A stretch of DNA of 63,996 nucleotides, the filler included, from Alcyonidium flabelliforme (taxonomy: Eukaryota), in the NCBI GenBank assembly GCA_026167845.1. It is 19 parts of 19 records of this genome, joined end to end, with 100 filler letters (N's around TTAATTAATTAA, not from the genome) between each part and the next. Parts side by side here need not be neighbours in the genome. Positions count along the whole stretch, not along the records: positions 1 to 4,110 come from JAOQFJ010000010.1; 18 more parts are not named here. The stretch is one strand, 5' to 3'. Both the position numbers and the translations under genes were made by a program. The notes under the pieces were generated by a model. That model searched no databases and was not told the origin of the DNA. It worked only from the letters and a program-made list of their open reading frames with translations. Below, in pieces: positions 1-11,489 of the stretch. Every line of letters begins with the position of its first letter. Positions within the stretch are counted from its first letter, which is position 1.

Positions 1-162
1 GCGATTACCACTCGTGGCTTCAATGAAGCACAAGCGGGCGAGTTGGCAGGTTGGATTTGTGACGTGCTAGACAGCCGCGGTGATGAAGCCGTCGCTACTG
101 AAGTACGCGGTAAAGTAGAAGCGATCTGTAAAGAATTGCCAGTTTACGAAAAAAATCAGTAA
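1..162 (+). CDS. glyA: Serine hydroxymethyltransferase, 3' end (partial)
   Basis: Frame 1 reads [24 protein letters not shown]...[15 protein letters not shown], the typical GlyA C-terminus (A-x-TTRG motif). Confidence 0.93.
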
Positions 163-197
163 TTTTTGTTTGAGCAGTTTTAAACGTTGGTTAAAAT

Positions 198-231
198 AAA
201 AACCGCTTAGCTTTTGCTAGGCGGTTTTTTT
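198..231 (+). terminator. Rho-independent terminator of glyA
   Basis: AAAAACCGCTTAGC-TTTT-GCTAGGCGGTTTTTTT hairpin with U-tract. Confidence 0.9.
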
Positions 232-405
232 GTGAGTAAAATTAGTAAGAGTTTTTGAGAATTCGAGTAGAACAAGGGTGTAGTCAAAGTTTTACGTTTA
301 ACTATTTCACTGCAAAAAAGATAATAAATAATAATGTACAAATACATAAAATAGCTATTCTTAATAAGCTATAATTAATAGTCGATAATTTTTCAGTGGT
401 AAGTT

Positions 406-1626
406 ATGTTAGATCAGTCCATTAATAAGAGTAGTCTCAAATATATAATCAATGACTTTGAACAAAACCTAAAGTTCAAAAGTGAATTCAGTAACGGAAC
501 AGACGTAGTTGTTGAGCAGATTTTGTCACAATATAGAAAAAGTGAACCTTTTGAATTACTTACAGTGAGAAGTATTAAAGGTAAAAAAGCATATCAGGCG
601 GAAGGTATATATCCATACTACCTTCTAAAACGATTCAACGTTACTTTCAAGACGATTACTTCACTTAAACAAGCCAATCGTAATGAAATAGTTTCATCAA
701 TTGTAGCTCTTATCAGAGATAAAAGACCTTATTCTATTATTAGGCTAGACATTGAGCAGTTCTATGAGAGTGTGAACAGAGATATTATTTCAGATAATCT
801 CAAACAAGACATTGCATATAGCAAGTCTACGATAAATATTTTAGAAAAGTGGTTTGACTGCTTCGAAAGAAGTAATGTATCAGGTCTACCTAGAGGATTA
901 AGCGTAAGTGCAAGCTTATCAGAGTATTATCTTCGAGATTTTGACAAGGAAGTACAGAGAATTGAAGGGGTGTTTTACTATGCCAGATTCGTAGACGATA
1001 TTATTATATTTACTACTAATGAGCCTGAAAACACAATAAAAGAAGTTGAAACTCACCTTCCTAAAGGACTTAAGTTTCATCAGAGTAATGAAAAAAGGGA
1101 CGTTTTAATAATACCAAAAGAGAATAATGTTAATAGTGAGAATTTAGAATTTAATTATCTTGGATATGAGTTCTCTATTATAATTGAAAAGAAAAAATTA
1201 ACTACAAAAGTTAATTTCTCTAAGAGAAAAGTAAATAATATTAAGACTAAAATTGTCAAATCCTTATTGAGTTTCAAAGAAAACAACGACTTCAGCTTAC
1301 TGAAATCGAGAGTCTGCTTTCTTACCCATAATTACTATATTCATAATAAGTATCGAGACACTAAAATTAGGAGCGGTATATATTACAATTATCTGTTCAT
1401 TACTCATCCTGAAGAGTGCAGACTTAATGATTTGGATGATTTTCTAAAAGAGTTGCTGTTTAACTCTAGCTCATGTAAACGTGTCTTAGGAAGTATGCAT
1501 GGCTTATCTAATCAGCAACGAAAGATTTTAGTAAGAATGAGGTTTTCCAATGGATATATTGATAAGAGATTCCATAAGTTTACCTATAGAAAAATGATGC
1601 AGATAAAATCTTGTTGGAGCTATTGA
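406..1626 (+). CDS. drt3a: Defence-associated reverse transcriptase, Drt3a-like (UG3 group), 406 aa
   Basis: RT motifs RLDIEQFYESV, GLPRGLSVSASLSE, YARFVDDIIIF, FNYLGYEF; C-terminal GIYYNY; directly upstream of a second, larger RT. Confidence 0.85.
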   Translation: MLDQSINKSSLKYIINDFEQNLKFKSEFSNGTDVVVEQILSQYRKSEPFELLTVRSIKGKKAYQAEGIYPYYLLKRFNVTFKTITSLKQANRNEIVSSIVALIRDKRPYSIIRLDIEQFYESVNRDIISDNLKQDIAYSKSTINILEKWFDCFERSNVSGLPRGLSVSASLSEYYLRDFDKEVQRIEGVFYYARFVDDIIIFTTNEPENTIKEVETHLPKGLKFHQSNEKRDVLIIPKENNVNSENLEFNYLGYEFSIIIEKKKLTTKVNFSKRKVNNIKTKIVKSLLSFKENNDFSLLKSRVCFLTHNYYIHNKYRDTKIRSGIYYNYLFITHPEECRLNDLDDFLKELLFNSSSCKRVLGSMHGLSNQQRKILVRMRFSNGYIDKRFHKFTYRKMMQIKSCWSY

Positions 1627-3635
1627 TGAGTAAGACCAAATTCCACTTATCTTCAGATGATTTTTATAGAATGCTCTTGTCAGATGTACAGCCGTATCAT
1701 ATGCCTATGATATTTAGTAATGAGGGTTTTTATTATGCAGTCAAATCAAACAATAGGTTTAAAGCTTTAAGCGAAGAAATTGATGATAACAATGATTTAA
1801 GAACATTTGAAGTTGCTACTTCTACAGTTCCTTATGTTTACTATATAAATAAAAACTCACACTCATTAAGGGAATTGTCCTTAATACATCCATATCAACA
1901 GCTTAAGTTTGTTGACTTCTATAGTAACTATCATTCCTTAATTTTATACTACTGTAAGAAAAGTAGTTTTTCGCTCCGCTATCCCGCTAAAAGAAATAGT
2001 ACAGTTTATAGCTCAAGACATAAGAAAATATATGAAAAGATTATCAATGAGTATAAATCGGAACACCCTGATCTAGTGTCTGATGATAAAGTATTTAAAT
2101 ATGCTTCTACTTTCTTTTCTTACCGAAAATATGATTTTAATTATAAGTTTTATGAGTCTACAGAGTTTGTAAGACTTGAAAGAAAATATCCCTATCTAAG
2201 AATGATGGATGTCGCTAGATGTTTTGATAGTATTTATACCCATAGCATTTCTTGGGCAGTTAAGGGTAAAGAGTACATCAAAACTAATATATCGGCTCCT
2301 AAGAATAACTCTTCGTTTGATGAGGAGTTTGATAAAATTATGCAAGCTTCAAATTATCAAGAGACTAATGGAATTCTTGTAGGGTCTGAGGTTGCGAGAA
2401 TTTTTGCCGAAGTAATACTTCAAGAAATCGACGAAAACATTATTGAAGAGTTAGCTGCTAAAAATATATATAACAATAGAGACTATACGATTAGACGTTA
2501 TGTAGATGATTTCTGTATATTTGCCACCAATCAAGAAAAGTTAGAGACTATATCAGACACTATAGTAAATGAATTAATGGTATATAAGCTGTTCATAAAC
2601 TCTAGTAAAACCAAGGACTATATTAGACCTTTCATAACTAACCGTTCGAAAAATATTATTGACCTAAGACGACTAATTAATCAACAGATGAGTGATATTC
2701 TAGAAAAAATAACATCAAGAGATGAGTCTGATAAAGCAACAAACTATTATTATTTTCCAAATAAGAGGTTGTTGAAGAATCCAACCAGATTATCTACGCG
2801 TTTCTTAAAAGACTTAAAAAGTTATTGGCATGTTGAAAAGGAGTTAGAAACTGGTTTTTCAAGCTATTTACTTAAGACATTAAACAAACAAGTCCTAATG
2901 TTTATGGAAAAGTTGGATATTAAACAGGTTGACGAAGACGACTTCGATTTTATAATAAATTATTTTATTTTTATATTTGACTTATCTTTATATGCATTAT
3001 CTCTTGAACCTAAGGTTACTCAGTCTTTCTCATTTTCTCGCCTGATTCTAATTATGACTCGTTTCAGTAAAGTTGAGTTAGAAGATTACCATGAGAAATT
3101 TGCTCATAGAATACATACTGGTCTCACTGACTTATTACAAAATGAGTTGTCGACCAATTCTGCTTGTATGGTTGAGCGTCTGAATATCTTACTTACGCTA
3201 AATGATATTGGAGAGTATTACTTACCCAGTGAAGAGAACTTAAAAAGTTATATTTTTGGTGTGAATAACTCTAATATTGACTACTTTTCTTTAATAACAG
3301 GGTTATTCATTGTGAGACGTAAGAGTAACTATAGTAGCCTTCATAGCTTTATTATAGAAAACATAAAAAACAAGCTGCAAGCTTTTCCAGAAGTTAAAAA
3401 ATCCTCAGAAGCTATGCATCTTTATATGGACTCTATGAGTTGTCCATACATTAGTTATAATGAGAAGAAGGCTATTACGAAGGTAGTAGTGGAGAAGTTT
3501 GTTAGCCCAAACCGTCAGCATACAATAATCAAAGAATATATCGATTTTTTTAGTCAATATTATTGGTTTGTCAATTGGAGTGAGATAGATATTTTAAGCA
3601 AGTTATTCAGAAAGCAGTTGAGACGTGCATATTAA
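1626..3635 (+). CDS. drt3b: Defence-associated reverse transcriptase, Drt3b-like (UG8 group), about 669 aa
   Basis: RT motifs MDVARCFDSIYTHSISWA, GILVGSEVARIFAE, RRYVDDFCIF; ATG at 1626 overlaps the drt3a stop (TGATG), a better start than the listed TTG at 1611. Confidence 0.85.
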   Translation: MSKTKFHLSSDDFYRMLLSDVQPYHMPMIFSNEGFYYAVKSNNRFKALSEEIDDNNDLRTFEVATSTVPYVYYINKNSHSLRELSLIHPYQQLKFVDFYSNYHSLILYYCKKSSFSLRYPAKRNSTVYSSRHKKIYEKIINEYKSEHPDLVSDDKVFKYASTFFSYRKYDFNYKFYESTEFVRLERKYPYLRMMDVARCFDSIYTHSISWAVKGKEYIKTNISAPKNNSSFDEEFDKIMQASNYQETNGILVGSEVARIFAEVILQEIDENIIEELAAKNIYNNRDYTIRRYVDDFCIFATNQEKLETISDTIVNELMVYKLFINSSKTKDYIRPFITNRSKNIIDLRRLINQQMSDILEKITSRDESDKATNYYYFPNKRLLKNPTRLSTRFLKDLKSYWHVEKELETGFSSYLLKTLNKQVLMFMEKLDIKQVDEDDFDFIINYFIFIFDLSLYALSLEPKVTQSFSFSRLILIMTRFSKVELEDYHEKFAHRIHTGLTDLLQNELSTNSACMVERLNILLTLNDIGEYYLPSEENLKSYIFGVNNSNIDYFSLITGLFIVRRKSNYSSLHSFIIENIKNKLQAFPEVKKSSEAMHLYMDSMSCPYISYNEKKAITKVVVEKFVSPNRQHTIIKEYIDFFSQYYWFVNWSEIDILSKLFRKQLRRAY

Positions 3636-3699
3636 TTTGATAGATTGTACTTGGCATTCTATCTAGCTGTCTGTTTTACATTAGATGTTTTGATGGAAG

Positions 3700-3935
3700 C
3701 TCTTTTGAGTTTTAACCCAATTTTAAGCATGTGTATCTGTTAGTTTGCAATATTGAGGCTAACTATGCATTGAAATAAGTCTTAGCTGTAGGGAAGCGCC
3801 TAGTTTTTATGATAGTCGCACACACCATACAGAAGCGGTAGAGTGTCACTATTTATCAAATTTTAAAATTATTTATAAGTATTCTTCGAGCTACCCAAAC
3901 AGAAAGCCCCGATTATAAAAATATAATCGGGGCTT
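3700..3935 (+). ncRNA. Putative DRT3 non-coding RNA (boundaries approximate)
   Basis: No long ORF after drt3b; hairpins at 3729-3770, 3789-3802 and 3812-3852; ACACAC at 3820-3825; ends at the terminator hairpin 3904-3935. Confidence 0.65.
3904..3935. terminator. Probable bidirectional terminator between the DRT3 cassette and gltS
   Basis: Perfect 14-bp stem AAGCCCCGATTATA-AAAA-TATAATCGGGGCTT between convergent genes. Confidence 0.85.
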
Positions 3936-3975
3936 ATTTATATCAACTCAGTTTAACCTTTTACTATTGAACAAA

Positions 3976-4110
3976 TCACATAAACGGCAACTTCGTAAAT
4001 ATCTGCAATACCGTGGCATTGACAATATCGACAAAGAAAGCACCAACCATCGGCACAATTAAGAACGCTTTAGGCGAGGCCAAGTAGCGATCCGTTACCG
4101 CCTGCATATT
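3976..4110 (-). CDS. gltS: Sodium/glutamate symporter, 3' end (partial)
   Basis: Minus strand reads NMQAVTDRYLASPKAFLIVPMVGAFFVDIVNATVLQIFTKLPFM*, matching the GltS C-terminus. Confidence 0.88.
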   Translation of the reverse strand, partial: NMQAVTDRYLASPKAFLIVPMVGAFFVDIVNATVLQIFTKLPFM

Positions 4111-4210
4111 NNNNNNNNNNNNNNNNNNNNNNNNNNNNNNNNNNNNNNNNNNNNTTAATTAATTAANNNNNNNNNNNNNNNNNNNNNNNNNNNNNNNNNN
4201 NNNNNNNNNN
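4111..4210. other. Artificial contig spacer N44-TTAATTAATTAA-N44 (first of 18 identical spacers)
   Basis: The same 100-bp linker with stops in all six frames recurs between all contigs. Confidence 0.99.
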
Positions 4211-4342: not shown

Positions 4343-4375
4343 GGGCTAATATCTGACTATGGGATGTCCCATTTT
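4343..4375 (-). promoter_or_regulatory. Putative ColE2-type replication origin
   Basis: Immediately after the rep stop the minus strand reads AAAATGGGACATCCCATAGTCAGATATTAGCCC, resembling ColE2-family origins (AAAATGAGAC...TCAGATA..AGC.CC) in the expected position. Confidence 0.6.
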
Positions 4376-5369
4376 ATTTTTTATTCTTCTGAATGCCCCA
4401 CCGTGTAAGGGTTCTACGGTTTACTTGTAATTTCTCTGCGATAACTTTGAGATTAACGCCCTCAGACGCCCATTTTTGCGCTTGGATTACCTTATCAGTG
4501 TTATCGCCCCAATAGGCTTTAGAACGCTTGCTCTGAAGCTCTGAGAAGCTTTTATGGCTCTTTGAGAAGTCCGTCTTTGAACAGTATCGGGCAATACTGG
4601 TAGCTATATGTTTGACTTCGTTAGGTAACAACGGTTCTTCAAAATCATTGTTGATTTGTTTTGCAATCGGTAGGATTTCTGCCAGTAACGCACGATATGT
4701 ACCACCACCAATCTTGTATGCTTCTACTCTCACTCGATCAAACAAGCTGCAATTGCGACCAAAACCAGCGTCATTAGCAGCTTTGTTAGTTTTGATGGAG
4801 TTATGAACCTCAGTGAAATTAACAAGCTCTATCAGGCGTTCTTCTAATTCATTCAGTGTGTAACCTTCGCTTGGTGCAGTAGTGACGCTGTATGTCCTCC
4901 ACATAGCATTGACTGGGTTCTTCATCAGGTTGCCGCTATAGCCTTTGTCGCCACCTAATGCCCATCTAAGACCTTTTTCGATTTTAGCTAAGTAACGTAT
5001 AGGATGAGAACGCGCCTTACCATACATGAATACAGGCTGTTTCAGCTTATAAACTAAGTGTGCATGTCCATTGTTTGGGTTTTGTATAATGAGATGTGGT
5101 GAAGGTACTTCCGATAGTTCTTTTAATGTCTTATGCAGAGTATCTGAATCATCTACATCTATGACGATGTAACGTATCTTGTGAGGTGGGTTAGGTTGTA
5201 TAAGAGCTTTTTTAATAGCGTAGGCTTTAGGAAGGATGTTCGTAAATACATTACCCTCAGCATTTTTCCCGTCACTACAGTAGGGTTTGTTTGCTAAATT
5301 TTCATAAAATTCGAGGGTTTCTGGGTATTCTTGCCACTCAGATGGGCGTATTGACACTATGTTATACAT
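4374..5369 (-). CDS. rep: ColE2-type plasmid replication initiator (Replicase + PriCT-1 + C-terminal HTH)
   Basis: KPYCSD, VIDVD, NPNNGHAHLVYKL, D.GYSG.LMKNP, GRNCSLFD, EVKHIATSIARY, C-terminal HTH IAEKLQVNRRTLTRW. Confidence 0.88.
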   Translation of the reverse strand: MYNIVSIRPSEWQEYPETLEFYENLANKPYCSDGKNAEGNVFTNILPKAYAIKKALIQPNPPHKIRYIVIDVDDSDTLHKTLKELSEVPSPHLIIQNPNNGHAHLVYKLKQPVFMYGKARSHPIRYLAKIEKGLRWALGGDKGYSGNLMKNPVNAMWRTYSVTTAPSEGYTLNELEERLIELVNFTEVHNSIKTNKAANDAGFGRNCSLFDRVRVEAYKIGGGTYRALLAEILPIAKQINNDFEEPLLPNEVKHIATSIARYCSKTDFSKSHKSFSELQSKRSKAYWGDNTDKVIQAQKWASEGVNLKVIAEKLQVNRRTLTRWGIQKNKK

Positions 5370-5458
5370 GCGTAGGCACTTGTGTTAGTGCGTCAGCTGA
5401 TATAAAATGACTTTATCGAAAAGTGGGTTTATATCTGCCAACACAGATTAAATTCATC

Positions 5459-5490
5459 CTAACCCCTGAGCCTGCCAGCTCAGGGGTTAG
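5459..5490. promoter_or_regulatory. Strong hairpin in the rep leader; candidate terminator or stem of a copy-control antisense RNA
   Basis: CTAACCCCTGAGC-CTGCCA-GCTCAGGGGTTAG, perfect 13-bp stem upstream of rep. Confidence 0.55.
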
Positions 5491-5612
5491 TCGTTTCTAG
5501 CGTATAATATTACGCTGTAAAATGTTCGCGGTCAACTGCCAATCCTTTATGTGGTGGGGCTTACAGGATGACGCCTTTATTCATCAGGATGAATCAGCAC
5601 TTACTTCTCATT

Positions 5613-7397
5613 TTAAGAATAATTCATACTATTATCATAAGGTGAATCATTTTGCGGTTTTGGCTCCGAACTTTGTTGTACGGGTTTTTCAATTTTTGGC
5701 TCTGTATTAACAACAGGATTAAGAGAATCTAGTTTCTCTAAGTCATGAAAATCGCATTTTATGTCGTATTTCTCTGCGAACTCACGAATACCAAGTGCTT
5801 CTGATGCTTTTCTAAGCCCAAAATCGATCAGGATACGAGCGTCACTCAAAACATTTTCATCTAGCATAAACTTCTCAAACGCTCTAGCCGTACTATTTTG
5901 GGCGTATTCTGGGTTTAGTTGCTTACCTTGTTTACTTGTATTCGTTATGATTATTTTGTGGTTTCCCTTGATAGCGTTTTTTATAAGCGTGTGTACTTCA
6001 CCAGAAACATGCGAAATAACATCTCTATGTAAAAGCGTAATATTTCCGTATTTATCTGTTTCACCTATCTGAATTCTTAGACCAAGCGTCCGAATCATTC
6101 CAGAAGGCTTCCTTTTTTCTATGCGCTGACGTTCTGCCTCCTTCTCCTCTGCCTGTATCGTTGTTAATTCCTGTTGTCTTTGCTGTTCTCTTGCCTGCGT
6201 CTGTACATCAGGTCCTTGTATGAGTTGATCATATTCTTCAATCGTATTTGTAAGAAGCTGTTTTCTGTCTCTAATTCTTTGTTCTGAGCTTGTAATGAAC
6301 TGTTTAATGTCGATAATTCTTCGTTTTGAGCTTGTAATGAACTGTTTAGTGTCACTAATTCTTCGCTTGGCTCTATCAATAGTTTGTGCTGTTTCTTCGA
6401 CTCGTTTTCGGTGTAATCTATATCTCGGATATGACTCGTCAATTCGTTGGCTTCTATAGCCAATAATGCGCTGGTGTGATTTGTCTGTTTCAACTGATGC
6501 TCTAATGCTTTGATGTCCATATTCTGATAGTTCACCGTATTCCGCAATTGCTCGTTCACTGCTACCAATTGCTCTATTTGCTCTGTCAATTGCTGTACTT
6601 GCTCGCTCATGTGATTCCTTATCAATTTTTCCTAACTCATCAATAATATTAATAGCCAGGCTATCTAGCTTGGCTTGTTCGAAATCATTTCTAGCAGTTA
6701 GTAGGTTGGTATAAATTTCTTTGACGTCCGCACGTTTAATCTGCTGCATTGATAAATTAATTGGCTCTCTATCAATCCCTTGTTCCTTAAGGCTTTTCAT
6801 ACTTATTCGAGCGTCTGACCCTGCCAACTCAAGATGGGAGTTACATAGTTTTTCCCACCTATCACGTTGGTCTTTCAATTCTAGTTTTCGTTCACTTTCG
6901 AACTTAGGCGTATTCGCCTTCTTAGCTCCGCCAGACTCGGGTTTTTTAGCATTAAAACGCTTAAAGTATTGGTCTGGATCGCGCTCTATGCCGTCTATTA
7001 AGCGTTCGCTAAACATAATATGAGCATGTGGTTGTTCTAAGCCGTCCATAGCTAAAGGGTTATGTATGGCATATTGATAAGCATGTTTTTCACCAATTTC
7101 TTGATGAATCCATTCTTTAATCAACTCATGGCGTTGGTCTGCTGTTAGCTCCCTTGGTAATGTAATTATATGCTCTCGATAAGATGTGCCGTTTTTTCGC
7201 TCTTTATCATCAGACATTTTCCAGAAAAAATTAGGATCAGCTTGTGCCCATTTAGGCATGTTCCCGTGCCCTGTTCCTTCTAGCTTTTCCAGACCATCAT
7301 TATGCTTAGCATACTTACCCTCGCGTGCAATATATTGGGCATGAGGGCCTCCTTTACCTTTGACTCCCACCACGACACTTAATCTACCGATTGCCAT
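5613..7397 (-). CDS. mobA: MobA/MobL-family (MOBQ) relaxase with long coiled-coil C-terminus
   Basis: N-terminal MAIGRLSV, HAQYIAREGKY, ERKNGTSYREHIITLPREL, AIHNP...QPHAHIMFSER (3H motif). Confidence 0.92.
   Translation of the reverse strand: MAIGRLSVVVGVKGKGGPHAQYIAREGKYAKHNDGLEKLEGTGHGNMPKWAQADPNFFWKMSDDKERKNGTSYREHIITLPRELTADQRHELIKEWIHQEIGEKHAYQYAIHNPLAMDGLEQPHAHIMFSERLIDGIERDPDQYFKRFNAKKPESGGAKKANTPKFESERKLELKDQRDRWEKLCNSHLELAGSDARISMKSLKEQGIDREPINLSMQQIKRADVKEIYTNLLTARNDFEQAKLDSLAINIIDELGKIDKESHERASTAIDRANRAIGSSERAIAEYGELSEYGHQSIRASVETDKSHQRIIGYRSQRIDESYPRYRLHRKRVEETAQTIDRAKRRISDTKQFITSSKRRIIDIKQFITSSEQRIRDRKQLLTNTIEEYDQLIQGPDVQTQAREQQRQQELTTIQAEEKEAERQRIEKRKPSGMIRTLGLRIQIGETDKYGNITLLHRDVISHVSGEVHTLIKNAIKGNHKIIITNTSKQGKQLNPEYAQNSTARAFEKFMLDENVLSDARILIDFGLRKASEALGIREFAEKYDIKCDFHDLEKLDSLNPVVNTEPKIEKPVQQSSEPKPQNDSPYDNSMNYS
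6164..6625 (-). CDS. Overlapping alternative-frame coiled-coil ORF inside mobA (MobB-like)
   Basis: 153-aa ORF in a different frame with heptad pattern and 14-aa repeat; analogous to mobB nested in RSF1010 mobA. Confidence 0.45.
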   Translation of the reverse strand: MIRNHMSEQVQQLTEQIEQLVAVNEQLRNTVNYQNMDIKALEHQLKQTNHTSALLAIEANELTSHIRDIDYTENESKKQHKLLIEPSEELVTLNSSLQAQNEELSTLNSSLQAQNKELETENSFLQIRLKNMINSYKDLMYRRRQENSKDNRN

Positions 7398-8417: not shown

Positions 8418-8748
8418 TGTTGAAATATGATCGCTCGCTTTATTCTGGTAAAGCTGTGTTTATTTATAAATCGGCTGACTCTAACTTTGTTCCCCTAGAA
8501 GCTGATATTAATAAAATTCGAGGCCCTAAATCTGGTTTTACTGAAGCATTCACCCCACAGTTTTCCCCAAAAAACATCTCACCTCAGGACTTAACACATA
8601 ATAATATATTAACTCTAGAAGAGTGTTATGTACCTCCAAATGTGGAGCATATATTTTGTCGGTTTTCTTTGAGAGTTCAGGCTAACTCATTGGTTCCTTC
8701 AGGCTGTAGTGACCCAGAGGTTTTCTCTTTATTAGAAGAGTTGGCAAA
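8418..8748 (+). pseudogene. cas7f: N-terminal fragment of type I-F CRISPR backbone protein Cas7f/Csy3 (I-F3 CAST-like)
   Basis: LKYDRSLYSGKAVF.YK....FVPLEA....IRG.K.GFTEAF...EECYVPPNVEHIFCRFSLRVQANSL.PSGCSDPEV matches my recollection of Cas7f of Tn7-associated I-F3 systems. Confidence 0.72.
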
Positions 8749-11489
8749 TGTGAAGGTGGACACTGCCCTTCGATTCTATCCATTTAGAATAACGTATGAC
8801 ATCGAGTGTTTCTTGCCAAAGATTAATCTTCCCTCCAATACCGACTCTGTAGAATTCACATCGAGTCATCACCTTCTCAGTATTTCTACATGCTCAAACA
8901 TTCCGGGTTTCACCAATCCTAAGTGTTTTGTGAGGGAAACCCAAAATTCCTCAGCAAAATGTGTTTCACAATTTGTAGAGTACATTCTCGAGATGAGCGA
9001 GACAGCCGGTTCAATAATGATCGAACGATTTAGTGAGGTATCGACAGACTTGATAAGGTTATCGGAGATGTTGAGTTGAAGGAGAAAGACTTTAAAGATG
9101 CAGAATTTTCAAATCCATTTGTCTATCGTACAAGAGCTAATCTCTCGGATCTATGCGAGCGCTTGGTCTGTTATCTGCGAGTTGTACCAATTGTCGGCTT
9201 TAACTCTCAACGATACGATATCAACGTTATGAAGGGGGAGTTGATAAGAGAATTAGGACATCAAGGAGAAAAGATCCGCTCTGTGGTAAAGAAAACCAAC
9301 AACATGACTTGTATCGAAACCAACCATCTGAGGTTTTTGGACATTTGCAACTTCATTGCACCTGGATTTTCTTACGAGAAATATCTAAAAGCTTTTGGGT
9401 GTAGCCAGGAAAAGGGATTTTTTCCATACGAATGGATGGACTCACTTGAAAAACTTTCATTAACTGAGTTACCATCGAGACAAGATTTCTATAGTACGCT
9501 AAGGCAATCAAACATCTCTGCTGAGGAATATGACTACTGTCAAGAAATATGGCGTAGTCGACAAATGAACAGTTTCAGAGATTTTCTTATATGGTACAAC
9601 AATCTCGATGTTGAACCGTTTCTGGAAGCTTTGGAAAAGCAGTCTGAGATATATCGTGCAAAGGAAATTGACATGCTAAAGGGGGCAATATCTTTACCTG
9701 GATTGGCCGTTAGATGGTTGTTTTCAGAGATTCCTCCGTTACCAAGAGCGATACGTAACGCTTCTTACTCATTTGTGGAGTTGAAACGTTATCACAGAGA
9801 ACGTCAACCGATTTGTCTTATCGATAAAGCAAATAGAGATCTGCATAGGATTGTCAAGGATAATATTGTTGGAGGACCGAGTGTGATATTTCACCGACAT
9901 CATGAAAAGGGAGAGAGTAGTATTCGAGAAAGGATCTATCAATCGGATGCCAAAGAATGTCAGCAGATACTCGGTGTCGATGCCAATGCGTTATATTTGT
10001 GGTGTATGATGCAAGATATGCCAACTGGTTACCCAATACGTAGAAGGAATGAGAATAATTTTGAACCTGATAAAACCCAACGATTCAGCAAGGCTGCACA
10101 CGGATGGTTGGAGTATGTCGCTTTTGTCAGTGGAGAAGATATTAAGCATATACGTAATGGGAATGAGGTCAGAATAGGTAGACATGGTCTTCCCGTCGAC
10201 GGTTACTGCAAAGACACCAGAACAATCTATCAGTTTCACGGTTGTTTTTGGCACGGACATCCATGTTGCAAGACTGCGGGCATAGTTGATCATCCGTTAA
10301 AGCATAAACCGATGGCTACTTTGCATGCCGAGACTCTGGAAAAGGATAAATATCTGAGACATCTCGGTTACAAACTTGTCGTGACATGGGAGTGTGAGTG
10401 GGATAGAACCGTTAGAAATAGTAATATCATAAAGGAATTTCTGGCGTCTCTATTCCAAGCAATATACGGAAGTAAAAGTGGGATGACACAAAGTGAAGCC
10501 ATAGAGAGAATTCAGAGGGGCGACTTCTATGGTCTCGTAGAATGTGATATATCCGTACCATCCCATCTTCATCGTAAATTTGCAGAAATGTCTCCCATAT
10601 TTAAGAATGTGAATGTTGGGCGCGAACAATTGAGTGACCAATGCTAGAGTTTGCTGACGCGTTTGAATTTCTAAAGAGACCTCAACGGATGATGGTGGGG
10701 AGTATGTTTGGAAAGAAAATCTTATTGCTCAGTACACTTGCCCGATGGTATCTAAATCATGGATTGGAAATTACTAAAATATATCAGATGATAGACTACA
10801 TTCCCAGGAGAGTATTCAACGAGTTTGGTGAATCTGTAAGCAGTGCAAGACGGGCAGGAGATGAGGATCCAAGTCTTGCACTATTAGCTTCCACAAGCAA
10901 ACTAGTGGGAAACTCCGTATATGGGAAGACTATTACGGATAAAGAGAAACATAGGGATGTGGCCTATGTTGAGGGAGATCGGGCAGTCTCTAACAGGATT
11001 AAGAGGACCAACTTTGTATCGTTGGATGAGATTGATGAGGAATTCTATGAAGTTACCACACAGAAAAAAAGGGTAAGAGTTATATTGTTATAGTTTAGTT
11101 TGCTCAGTTACAATTTATTTGTGCGTTACTTTCCTTCACTAGCGATGCATCATTGCTGAATGTTGTTGTTTTGTAAATCCTACGACATCGTTTTACATCT
11201 GGTCGTTGCTATTGAGATTGTAAATGCTATGACGATTCCTCCAATAGTACCTAAGAGTTACAGTTTGTTGTTTGGCTTAGGTATAAATGGTTACTCGACG
11301 GCTTGTTTTGTCAAAGCTCTCCATTCTCGTAGTCGTAAGTATGTTTAGAGTTTGATTATCTTGTATTTTACCGTTTGTTATTTGTTTCATATTGTAGCTG
11401 AACATGAACATACCCGTCACATTGGGCTTTGCTATCCTTCAGCTTGCAAAAATGCGAATGCTGGAGTTCTACTTTGACTTCATGGATAG
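8749..11489 (+). pseudogene. Polinton/Maverick-like protein-primed family B DNA polymerase with inserted VSR-like nuclease; frameshifted and intron-containing
   Basis: YDIEC, GFNSQRYD, KGFFPYEW, YNNLDV, IVGGPS, GVDANALY, VDGY...FHGCFWHG...WECEW, KLVGNSVYGK; frameshifts near 9076 and 10641; additional exon at 11398-11489. Confidence 0.85.

What the first reader, a model, noticed from the sequence alone, without database searches (positions are those of the whole stretch)
3729..3900. Candidate template RNA: ACACAC tract in a hairpin scaffold, predicting dinucleotide-repeat DNA synthesis
Seen: hairpin 3729-3770 (ATGTGTA..GTTAGTTT/AGGCTAAC.TATGCAT around CAATATTG), small hairpin TAGG-GAAGCG-CCTA (3789-3802), and stem ATAGTCGCAC/GTGTCACTAT (3812-3821 with 3843-3852) enclosing CACACAC at 3819-3825. 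Inference: a short AC repeat held in a structured RNA could be copied iteratively, telomerase-style, by Drt3a into poly(GT). There is no comparable GT tract in the RNA, so any complementary poly(AC) strand would have to come from Drt3b without an RNA template (protein-directed or DNA-templated). I recall recent DRT3 work reporting poly(GT/AC) products but cannot verify it here.
Basis: partly seen in the sequence, partly recalled or inferred. Interest (0 to 1): 0.88.

Follow-up and report, generated by a model that had tools for sequence, protein, structure and literature searches.

The report
DRT3 defence with histidine base-selection gate
This is the likely template RNA of a known bacterial anti-phage system (DRT3) that makes repeat DNA, and its partner enzyme carries histidine in place of the acidic residue that normally selects adenine, a natural variant that would allow a test of whether protein-templated DNA synthesis can use a different code.

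Summary
The region lies directly behind intact drt3a and drt3b genes (NCBIfam 356 and 616 bits, above cut-off). ACACAC (3820-3825) follows drt3b in 21 of 21 loci examined (background about 5%). The RNA is about 3652-3848, closed by a 20-bp helix kept 20/20 in a relative, and the template lies free after a hairpin at 3796-3819. New here: Drt3b has His25 at the adenine gate (E22/E26). Among 150 diverse homologues the site is Glu in 101, Asp in 41, a gap in 6 and His in 2, both from one Psychrobacter/Moraxella clade (17 of 17 His, support 0.998, dN/dS 0.12-0.16). That clade keeps Arg258, YVDD, Tyr669 and the template. Most likely His still selects adenine; a relaxed or changed product is not excluded. 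No activity was measured, and the Science paper and supplementary figures were not seen. The scan earlier noted a DRT3 locus on other DNA.

The parts
406..1626 (+). drt3a, class 2 (UG3) reverse transcriptase, 406 aa, catalytic FVDD at 988-999
   Evidence: NF041747 356 bits against cut-off 200; PADLOC Drt3a E 1.7e-113; PDB 9z6y_A E 1.2e-48. FVDD also occurs in Drt3a of Glu/Asp-gate loci L035, L038, L041, L042.
1626..3635 (+). drt3b, class 1 (UG8) reverse transcriptase, 669 aa from the ATG; keeps Arg82, Asp195, Phe200, Arg258, YVDD 292-295 and terminal Tyr669
   Evidence: NF041748 616 bits against cut-off 350; PDB 9z6y_H E 1.9e-95 and 26cz_A E 7.7e-93; model pLDDT 86.6 with AbiK/DRT4-like fold.
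1698..1700 (+). His25 codon at the adenine-gate position (E22 of EcoDRT3b in 26cz, E26 in 9z6y)
   Evidence: Gap-free alignment PYHMP against PYEVP/PYETP; distribution among homologues; clade.
3652..3848 (+). predicted DRT3 ncRNA, about 197 nt (ends inferred from the closing helix, not mapped)
   Evidence: Fold, conservation with L005; one RNA-library contig covers 3670-3822 with no mismatch (weak).
3652..3674 (+).
   Evidence: Pairs with 3829-3848; 20/20 pairs in the window and in L005, with 2 one-sided changes and 1 two-sided change.
   Evidence: Minimum-energy fold; SL3 base 9/10 pairs in L005, tips poorly conserved; all 7 indel rows of a 97% relative fall at 3702-3739.
3796..3819 (+). SL4, the hairpin that abuts the 5' side of the template (likely the template boundary)
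   Evidence: Pair probabilities 0.72-0.86; 7/7 pairs in L005 with a C-G to G-C change; readthrough into stem-loop 4 discussed in PMC13174585.
3820..3825 (+). ACACAC template loop
   Evidence: Unpaired probability 0.81-0.99; present after drt3b in 21 of 21 loci; matches the published template.
3829..3848 (+). 3' strand of the closing helix P1
   Evidence: 3818-3848 is 30/31 identical to L005 although synonymous sites in drt3b are saturated, pS 0.81.
3904..3935 (.). 14-bp hairpin, terminator-like on both strands, between the cassette and the convergent gltS gene
   Evidence: Pattern scan; a consensus match only.

Best explanation
The region is the 3' half of the predicted non-coding RNA of an intact DRT3 anti-phage cassette, in which Drt3a likely copies the free ACACAC loop repeatedly into poly(GT) and Drt3b, primed from Tyr669, likely still writes alternating poly(AC), but with histidine instead of glutamate as the adenine gate. 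Shown here: gene identities, intact catalytic and priming residues, conservation of the template, the His substitution and its clade. Predicted: the fold (closing helix P1, variable SL1-3, SL4 abutting the template). Inferred from the E. coli system: repeat synthesis, annealing into poly(GT/AC) duplex, clearance by RecBCD, and abortive infection when a phage protein blocks RecBCD. Inferred from chemistry only: a neutral imidazole nitrogen can accept the adenine N6 hydrogen bond as the carboxylate does, while Arg258 still selects cytosine. Exclusion of G and T may be weaker because the negative charge is gone.
For: Family scores above cut-off. ACACAC in 21 of 21 loci against about 5% background. 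The closing helix, abutting hairpin and free template occur together in 12 of 21 loci, including 5 of 5 His-clade loci, against 3.5% of shuffled controls. His is fixed in a clade of 17 of 17 sequences spanning 44-97% identity. 47 of 55 listed cluster members have His, the other 8 lack the N-terminal motif, and none has another residue. drt3b dN/dS is 0.12-0.16 in three Moraxella-type pairs. Arg258 is present in 150/150 and Tyr669 in 148/150 representatives and both are kept here. The clade keeps drt3a and the AC template, which is useful only if the second strand stays complementary to poly(GT) (inference from PMC13174585).
Against: In E. coli DRT3b, E22A and E22K lose nearly all activity and E22D keeps part of it (PMC13174585); E22H is not among the plasmids listed. 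No activity was measured here. Broken alleles recur in the clade: the P. coccoides copy is in pieces, L013 drt3a and L014 drt3b are frameshifted, and a 384-aa truncated Drt3b recurs. Fold support rests on one alignable relative. With two sequences the pair counts do not beat shuffles (106/500 for % paired, 273/500 for covariation). Nine of 21 loci fail the architecture test, whose thresholds I set after seeing the folds. Transcription is only hinted at.
Confidence: 0.65

Rival explanations
1. The His gate changes what Drt3b writes. An imidazole N-H could donate a hydrogen bond to guanine O6, so purine steps would be mixed A/G or mainly G, giving poly(C-R) or self-complementary poly(CG) that pairs with poly(GT) through G-T wobbles.
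For: The published role of E22 is to repel the carbonyls of G and T by charge, and His lacks that charge. All 142 non-gap, non-His representatives have Glu or Asp, so His is the only non-acidic solution seen among 150. Other clade-diagnostic changes accompany it, such as Asn172 for Leu/Ile and Lys168 for Gly; their distance from the gate was not measured.
Against: The template is unchanged in 5 of 5 His-clade loci, and Drt3a is under purifying selection there (dN/dS 0.14-0.17). A changed second strand would weaken the duplex that the E. coli system needs.
Confidence: 0.2
2. His25 weakens or silences Drt3b, so the clade is an attenuated or decaying DRT3, or Drt3b mainly serves as a scaffold that stimulates Drt3a.
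For: Non-acidic E22 mutants are nearly inactive, and catalytically dead DRT3b still stimulates DRT3a in vitro (PMC13174585). Broken alleles occur in 3 of 5 His-clade loci.
Against: YVDD, Arg258, Arg82 and the priming Tyr are kept across the clade; dN/dS is about 0.12-0.16. Many near-identical full-length copies exist in several studies. Broken copies also occur among Glu/Asp-type loci (L038).
Confidence: 0.1
3. In this clade Drt3b copies the poly(GT) strand as an ordinary DNA-templated polymerase, so the protein gate is no longer needed.
For: One of the two templating side chains is lost.
Against: The other gate (Arg258) and the priming Tyr are kept, and the new residue is invariant rather than drifting. 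The fold is that of untemplated class 1 polymerases.
Confidence: 0.04
4. The tract is a chance repeat in an untranscribed 3' spacer.
For: Folding energy is not unusual, there is no Rfam match, and the promoter-like sites are not above chance (26 against 19 +/- 5).
Against: 21 of 21 positional conservation; 30/31 identity around the template against saturated synonymous sites; agreement with the published template.
Confidence: 0.01

Closest known systems
EcoDRT3 of E. coli ECOR12 (Wang et al., PMC13174585; PDB 26cz)
   Same: Gene order drt3a-drt3b-ncRNA; ACACAC loop after a stem-loop and before the closing strand; R71, D182, F187, R241, YVDD and Y666 map to R82, D195, F200, R258, YVDD and Y669.
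   Different: E22 is His25. The predicted RNA core is about 197 nt, whereas the listed EcoDRT3 ncRNA is 161 nt, and the sequences differ outside the template. The host clade is Psychrobacter/Moraxella. Activity, trigger and RecBCD dependence are untested.
EcDRT3 6:6:6 complex (Deng et al. 2026 Science; PDB 9z6y/9z6z; paper not read, known from passages of PMC13213688, PMC13434031 and PMC13314766)
   Same: Both proteins match the deposited chains over their whole length; Arg253 aligns with Arg258; same template motif.
   Different: Glu26 aligns with His25; the ncRNA is reported as 130 nt; Drt3a has FVDD for YVDD.
Glu/Asp-gate Drt3b family at large (NF041748)
   Same: Full-length match above cut-off; invariant Arg258; downstream ACACAC RNA.
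   Different: 142 of 144 non-gap representatives have an acidic gate; the nearest sister sequences P0019, P0021 and P0022 have Glu.
DRT10 and telomerase
   Same: Works like them on the Drt3a side: a short bounded RNA template copied iteratively (analogy drawn in PMC13174585).
   Different: It is not a member. The repeat is a dinucleotide and a second, protein-templated enzyme makes the other strand.

Membership tests
DRT3 | drt3a (UG3) followed directly by drt3b (UG8) | tested here: met
   356 and 616 bits against cut-offs of 200 and 350.
DRT3 | Intact catalytic motifs in both enzymes | tested here: met
   FVDD in Drt3a (a variant also seen outside the clade) and YVDD in Drt3b.
DRT3 | Downstream ncRNA with an ACACAC loop between stem-loop 4 and the closing helix | tested here: met
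   (predicted fold plus conservation).
DRT3 | Match to the published DRT3 ncRNA covariance model | not testable with these tools
   No Rfam match. My two-sequence model found only its own inputs strongly; the best other match was L032 at E 0.021.
DRT3 | The ncRNA is expressed and bound by the enzymes | tested here: inconclusive
   One RNA-library contig covers 3670-3822 exactly at depth 14.8; contigs cannot show ends, strand or level.
DRT3 (Drt3b mechanism) | C-terminal priming tyrosine | tested here: met
   Tyr669 aligns with Y666 of 26cz.
DRT3 (Drt3b mechanism) | Arg cytosine gate (R241/R253) and stacking Arg (R71) | tested here: met
   Arg258 and Arg82.
DRT3 (Drt3b mechanism) | Acidic adenine gate (E22/E26, or Asp) | tested here: not met
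   His25. This lowers 'canonical Drt3b chemistry', not membership of the gene family.
DRT3 | Poly(GT/AC) product and phage defence | not testable with these tools
   Needs biochemistry and plaque assays.

The most novel reading that the evidence does not exclude
The Psychrobacter/Moraxella clade is a natural re-coding of protein-templated DNA synthesis. Histidine at the purine gate lets Drt3b write a different or mixed dinucleotide repeat, for example dC-dG or dC-dA/dG, while the RNA-templated strand stays poly(GT). That would be the first case of one gate residue changing the sequence an amino-acid template writes.
Probability: 0.2. Interest if true: 0.85.

Novelty: new variant of a known kind. 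Interest (0 to 1): 0.45.

Why it matters
What remains open in the field is whether Drt3b's amino-acid code can be changed. A review states that programmability is not shown and names natural active-site variants as a productive next step (PMC13314766, passages). This clade offers such a variant, fixed and under purifying selection. If it still writes poly(AC), it shows a second chemical solution for selecting adenine and tests the charge-repulsion model. If it writes something else, it shows that the output can be recoded and that a perfect GT/AC duplex is not needed for defence.

Tried and rejected
Folding energy as evidence: not significant. Rfam: 3 chance-level matches, none on the RNA core. 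A longer template in Moraxella-type loci (GCACACACAC): rejected, the extra bases are the 3' strand of SL4. FVDD in Drt3a as a clade mark: rejected, it is seen in Glu/Asp loci too. A register shift putting Asp20 in the gate role: unlikely, because position 20 is already Glu/Asp in all non-gap homologues and the alignment has no gap there. Covariation statistics: too few close relatives; the five-sequence MAFFT alignment misplaced the P1 5' strand of the Moraxella-type rows; the two-sequence covariance model did not reach distant loci. Searches for more His-clade DNA gave little: genome-contig scan 1 fragment; 1 of 42 genomes of G169's genus; 1 real match among 154 genomes by DNA; none in plasmids by DNA; none in viral contigs. 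Substitutions of close variants inside the RNA were not obtained. The Foldseek library ends in April 2026 and returned no Drt3b structure, so the position of His25 was not checked in 3D. RNA runs X16 and X18 have no contig over the RNA, and X15 is one DNA-like contig across the whole cassette; none is evidence on expression. No complex prediction was run. Literature: 'Drt3b' + 'Psychrobacter' gave 0 papers; 'DRT3' + 'Moraxella' + 'reverse transcriptase' gave 0; 'DRT3'/'natural variants'/'gatekeeper' gave only the two papers already read among DRT3 papers; 'histidine' and 'E22H' gave 0 hits in the main text of PMC13174585 and 'E22H' 0 in its four readable supplements.

Full report
Setting. The window is a chain of 19 short pieces joined by N-TTAATTAATTAA-N linkers; the finding lies on the first, 1-4110. 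On it are the 3' end of glyA, drt3a (406-1626), drt3b (1626-3635), a 340-nt spacer and the convergent 3' end of gltS. The two genes are 31% G+C against 47% and 42% in the short flanks, which suggests an acquired cassette (inference). Both proteins pass the curated NCBIfam cut-offs (356 against 200, 616 against 350) and match the solved DRT3 chains over their full length. Named near relatives are Psychrobacter faecalis proteins (648 of 669 residues identical for Drt3b). The plasmid-type rep and mob genes after 4211 lie on another piece and cannot be linked to the cassette.

The observation. The quoted letters are all present. With the 80 nt after the drt3b stop included, a different fold appears. 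A 20-bp helix pairs 3652-3674 with 3829-3848, three internal stem-loops follow, then a hairpin 3796-3802/3813-3819, and ACACAC (3820-3825) is left unpaired. The only fully alignable relative is L005 from P. coccoides. It is 30/31 identical over 3818-3848 although synonymous sites in drt3b are saturated (pS 0.81). Against this, two sequences give no significant covariation (106/500 and 273/500 shuffles reach the observed values), and the longer fold is not significant on energy (z -1.53).

Conservation. ACACAC lies within 300 nt of the drt3b end in 21 of 21 loci examined: the window, 19 loci and L038. The background is 20 of 376 tiles in the window and 41 of 634 tiles in the loci, true sites included. 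I left out L001-L004 (internal pieces of one fragmented copy), L010 and L011 (contig ends too soon), and L015-L030, L039 and L040 (short 23-35% matches to the RT core only). I fetched 4 of the 11 plasmid hits. A closing helix, an abutting hairpin and a free template occur together in 12 of 21 predicted folds (5 of 5 in the His clade), against 3.5% of shuffles with the hexamer held in place. The thresholds were chosen after I had seen the folds, and each sequence was cut 40 nt after the template. For expression there is one weak hint: RNA run X17 holds a mismatch-free contig over 3670-3822 at depth 14.8, and two drt3a contigs at about 4. The tool warns that contigs cannot rank levels or show ends, and the other three RNA runs add nothing. 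A promoter-like site at 3618-3646 would start a transcript near 3652, but such sites are not above chance here.

What is known. I read parts 1-4 of 13 of PMC13174585 (summary, introduction, results, discussion, limitations), further passages and searched its four readable supplements. The file media-1.pdf could not be read (too large) and figures are not held, so the sequence logos are unseen. The paper shows that DRT3a copies ACACAC into poly(dTdG) and that DRT3b makes poly(dCdA) without nucleic acid, primed on Y666. E22 is the gate that binds adenine and repels G and T, and R241 is the cytosine switch. RecBCD clears the duplex and lambda Gam triggers abortive infection. I did not read Deng et al. 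2026 (Science); I know it from passages of PMC13213688 (Glu26 and Arg253), PMC13434031 and PMC13314766.

What differs. In gap-free alignments to both solved Drt3b chains, the window has His25 where they have E22 and E26. Arg82, Asp195, Phe200, Arg258, YVDD and Tyr669 are kept. Among the 120 best homologues the site is Glu 99, His 17, Asp 2, gap 2. Among the 150 best representatives at 50% clustering it is Glu 101, Asp 41, His 2, gap 6, and both His rows belong to this clade. In a tree of the window plus 116 of the 120 (four partial proteins left out: P0009, P0013, P0020, P0030) the 17 His sequences form one clade with FastTree support 0.998 and Glu sisters (midpoint root). Named members are Psychrobacter and Moraxella; an Alteromonas Drt3a at 45% hints that the clade may reach further, which I did not check. 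Of 55 listed cluster members, 47 show His and 8 lack the N-terminal motif. dN/dS of drt3b is 0.12-0.16 in three related pairs (L006, L013, L014, not independent). Ten other diagnostic columns go with the His, among them Asn172 and Lys168. The predicted model is confident (pLDDT 86.6) and resembles AbiK, DRT4 and DRT6, but the structure library predates the Drt3b entries, so His25 was not placed in 3D. L005 is assigned to the clade because the N-terminal piece from the same genome (L003) has His. Published E22 substitutions are A, K and D only. My literature searches found no mention of His or of these genera, but they do not cover the Science paper or the unseen figures.

Mechanism. Most likely (0.65) the system works as in E. 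coli, with histidine as the adenine gate. The AC template and Drt3a are kept throughout the clade, which makes sense only if the second strand still pairs with poly(GT), and a neutral imidazole can accept the adenine N6 hydrogen bond (my inference). Losing the negative charge should weaken exclusion of G and T, so a mixed or changed product is possible (0.2). Attenuation (0.1) is supported by the near-dead E22A and E22K mutants and by broken copies in 3 of 5 His-clade loci. It is opposed by purifying selection and by full-length copies in many runs. DNA-templated copying (0.04) and chance (0.01) are unlikely.

Verdict. The His-gated Drt3b is a new variant of a known kind that makes the open question of recoding protein-templated synthesis directly testable. 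Interest 0.45.

Noticed in passing
window 4111-4210 and 17 further linkers: The window is 19 size-sorted pieces of 28-55% G+C joined by N-TTAATTAATTAA-N spacers, so neighbours across linkers are not physically linked and may come from different organisms.
   Followed up: yes
window 4374-7397 (- strand): Small-plasmid backbone: Replicase/PriCT-1 protein (PF03090) and MobA/MobL (MobQ-type) relaxase; the PADLOC DpdH hit on the relaxase is probably spurious.
   Followed up: partly
window 8420-10647: An ORF whose first 110 aa weakly match Csy3 (PF09615, E 2.7e-4, below cut-off) runs into a weak DNA_pol_B_2-like ORF (E 1.1e-5, just below cut-off); possibly a chimeric piece or a Polinton-like polymerase (label recalled, not tested).
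   Followed up: no
L013:2034 and L014:3601: Moraxella-type His-clade alleles are frameshifted by single-base indels in A-runs (drt3a in L013, drt3b in L014). The same 384-aa truncated Drt3b end recurs in P0030 and P0295 (9 contigs). This could be slippage switching of a costly defence system, or decay.
   Followed up: partly
L002, L003 (G001 contigs C39, C27): The P. coccoides drt3b is split over contigs, and two pieces run into the same transposase-like sequence; the element was not identified.
   Followed up: no
P0121-P0260 set: 12 of 150 Drt3b representatives have YVDN instead of YVDD, another natural active-site variant.
   Followed up: no
L031:3448-3534: ACACACAC lies only about 40 nt after the drt3b stop and the predicted closing helix has only 3 pairs; the RNA may be very short or begin inside the gene.
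   Followed up: no
window 195-230: GC-rich hairpin followed by a T run after the glyA stop (seen in the sequence), a likely terminator upstream of the cassette; the scan did not list it.
   Followed up: no
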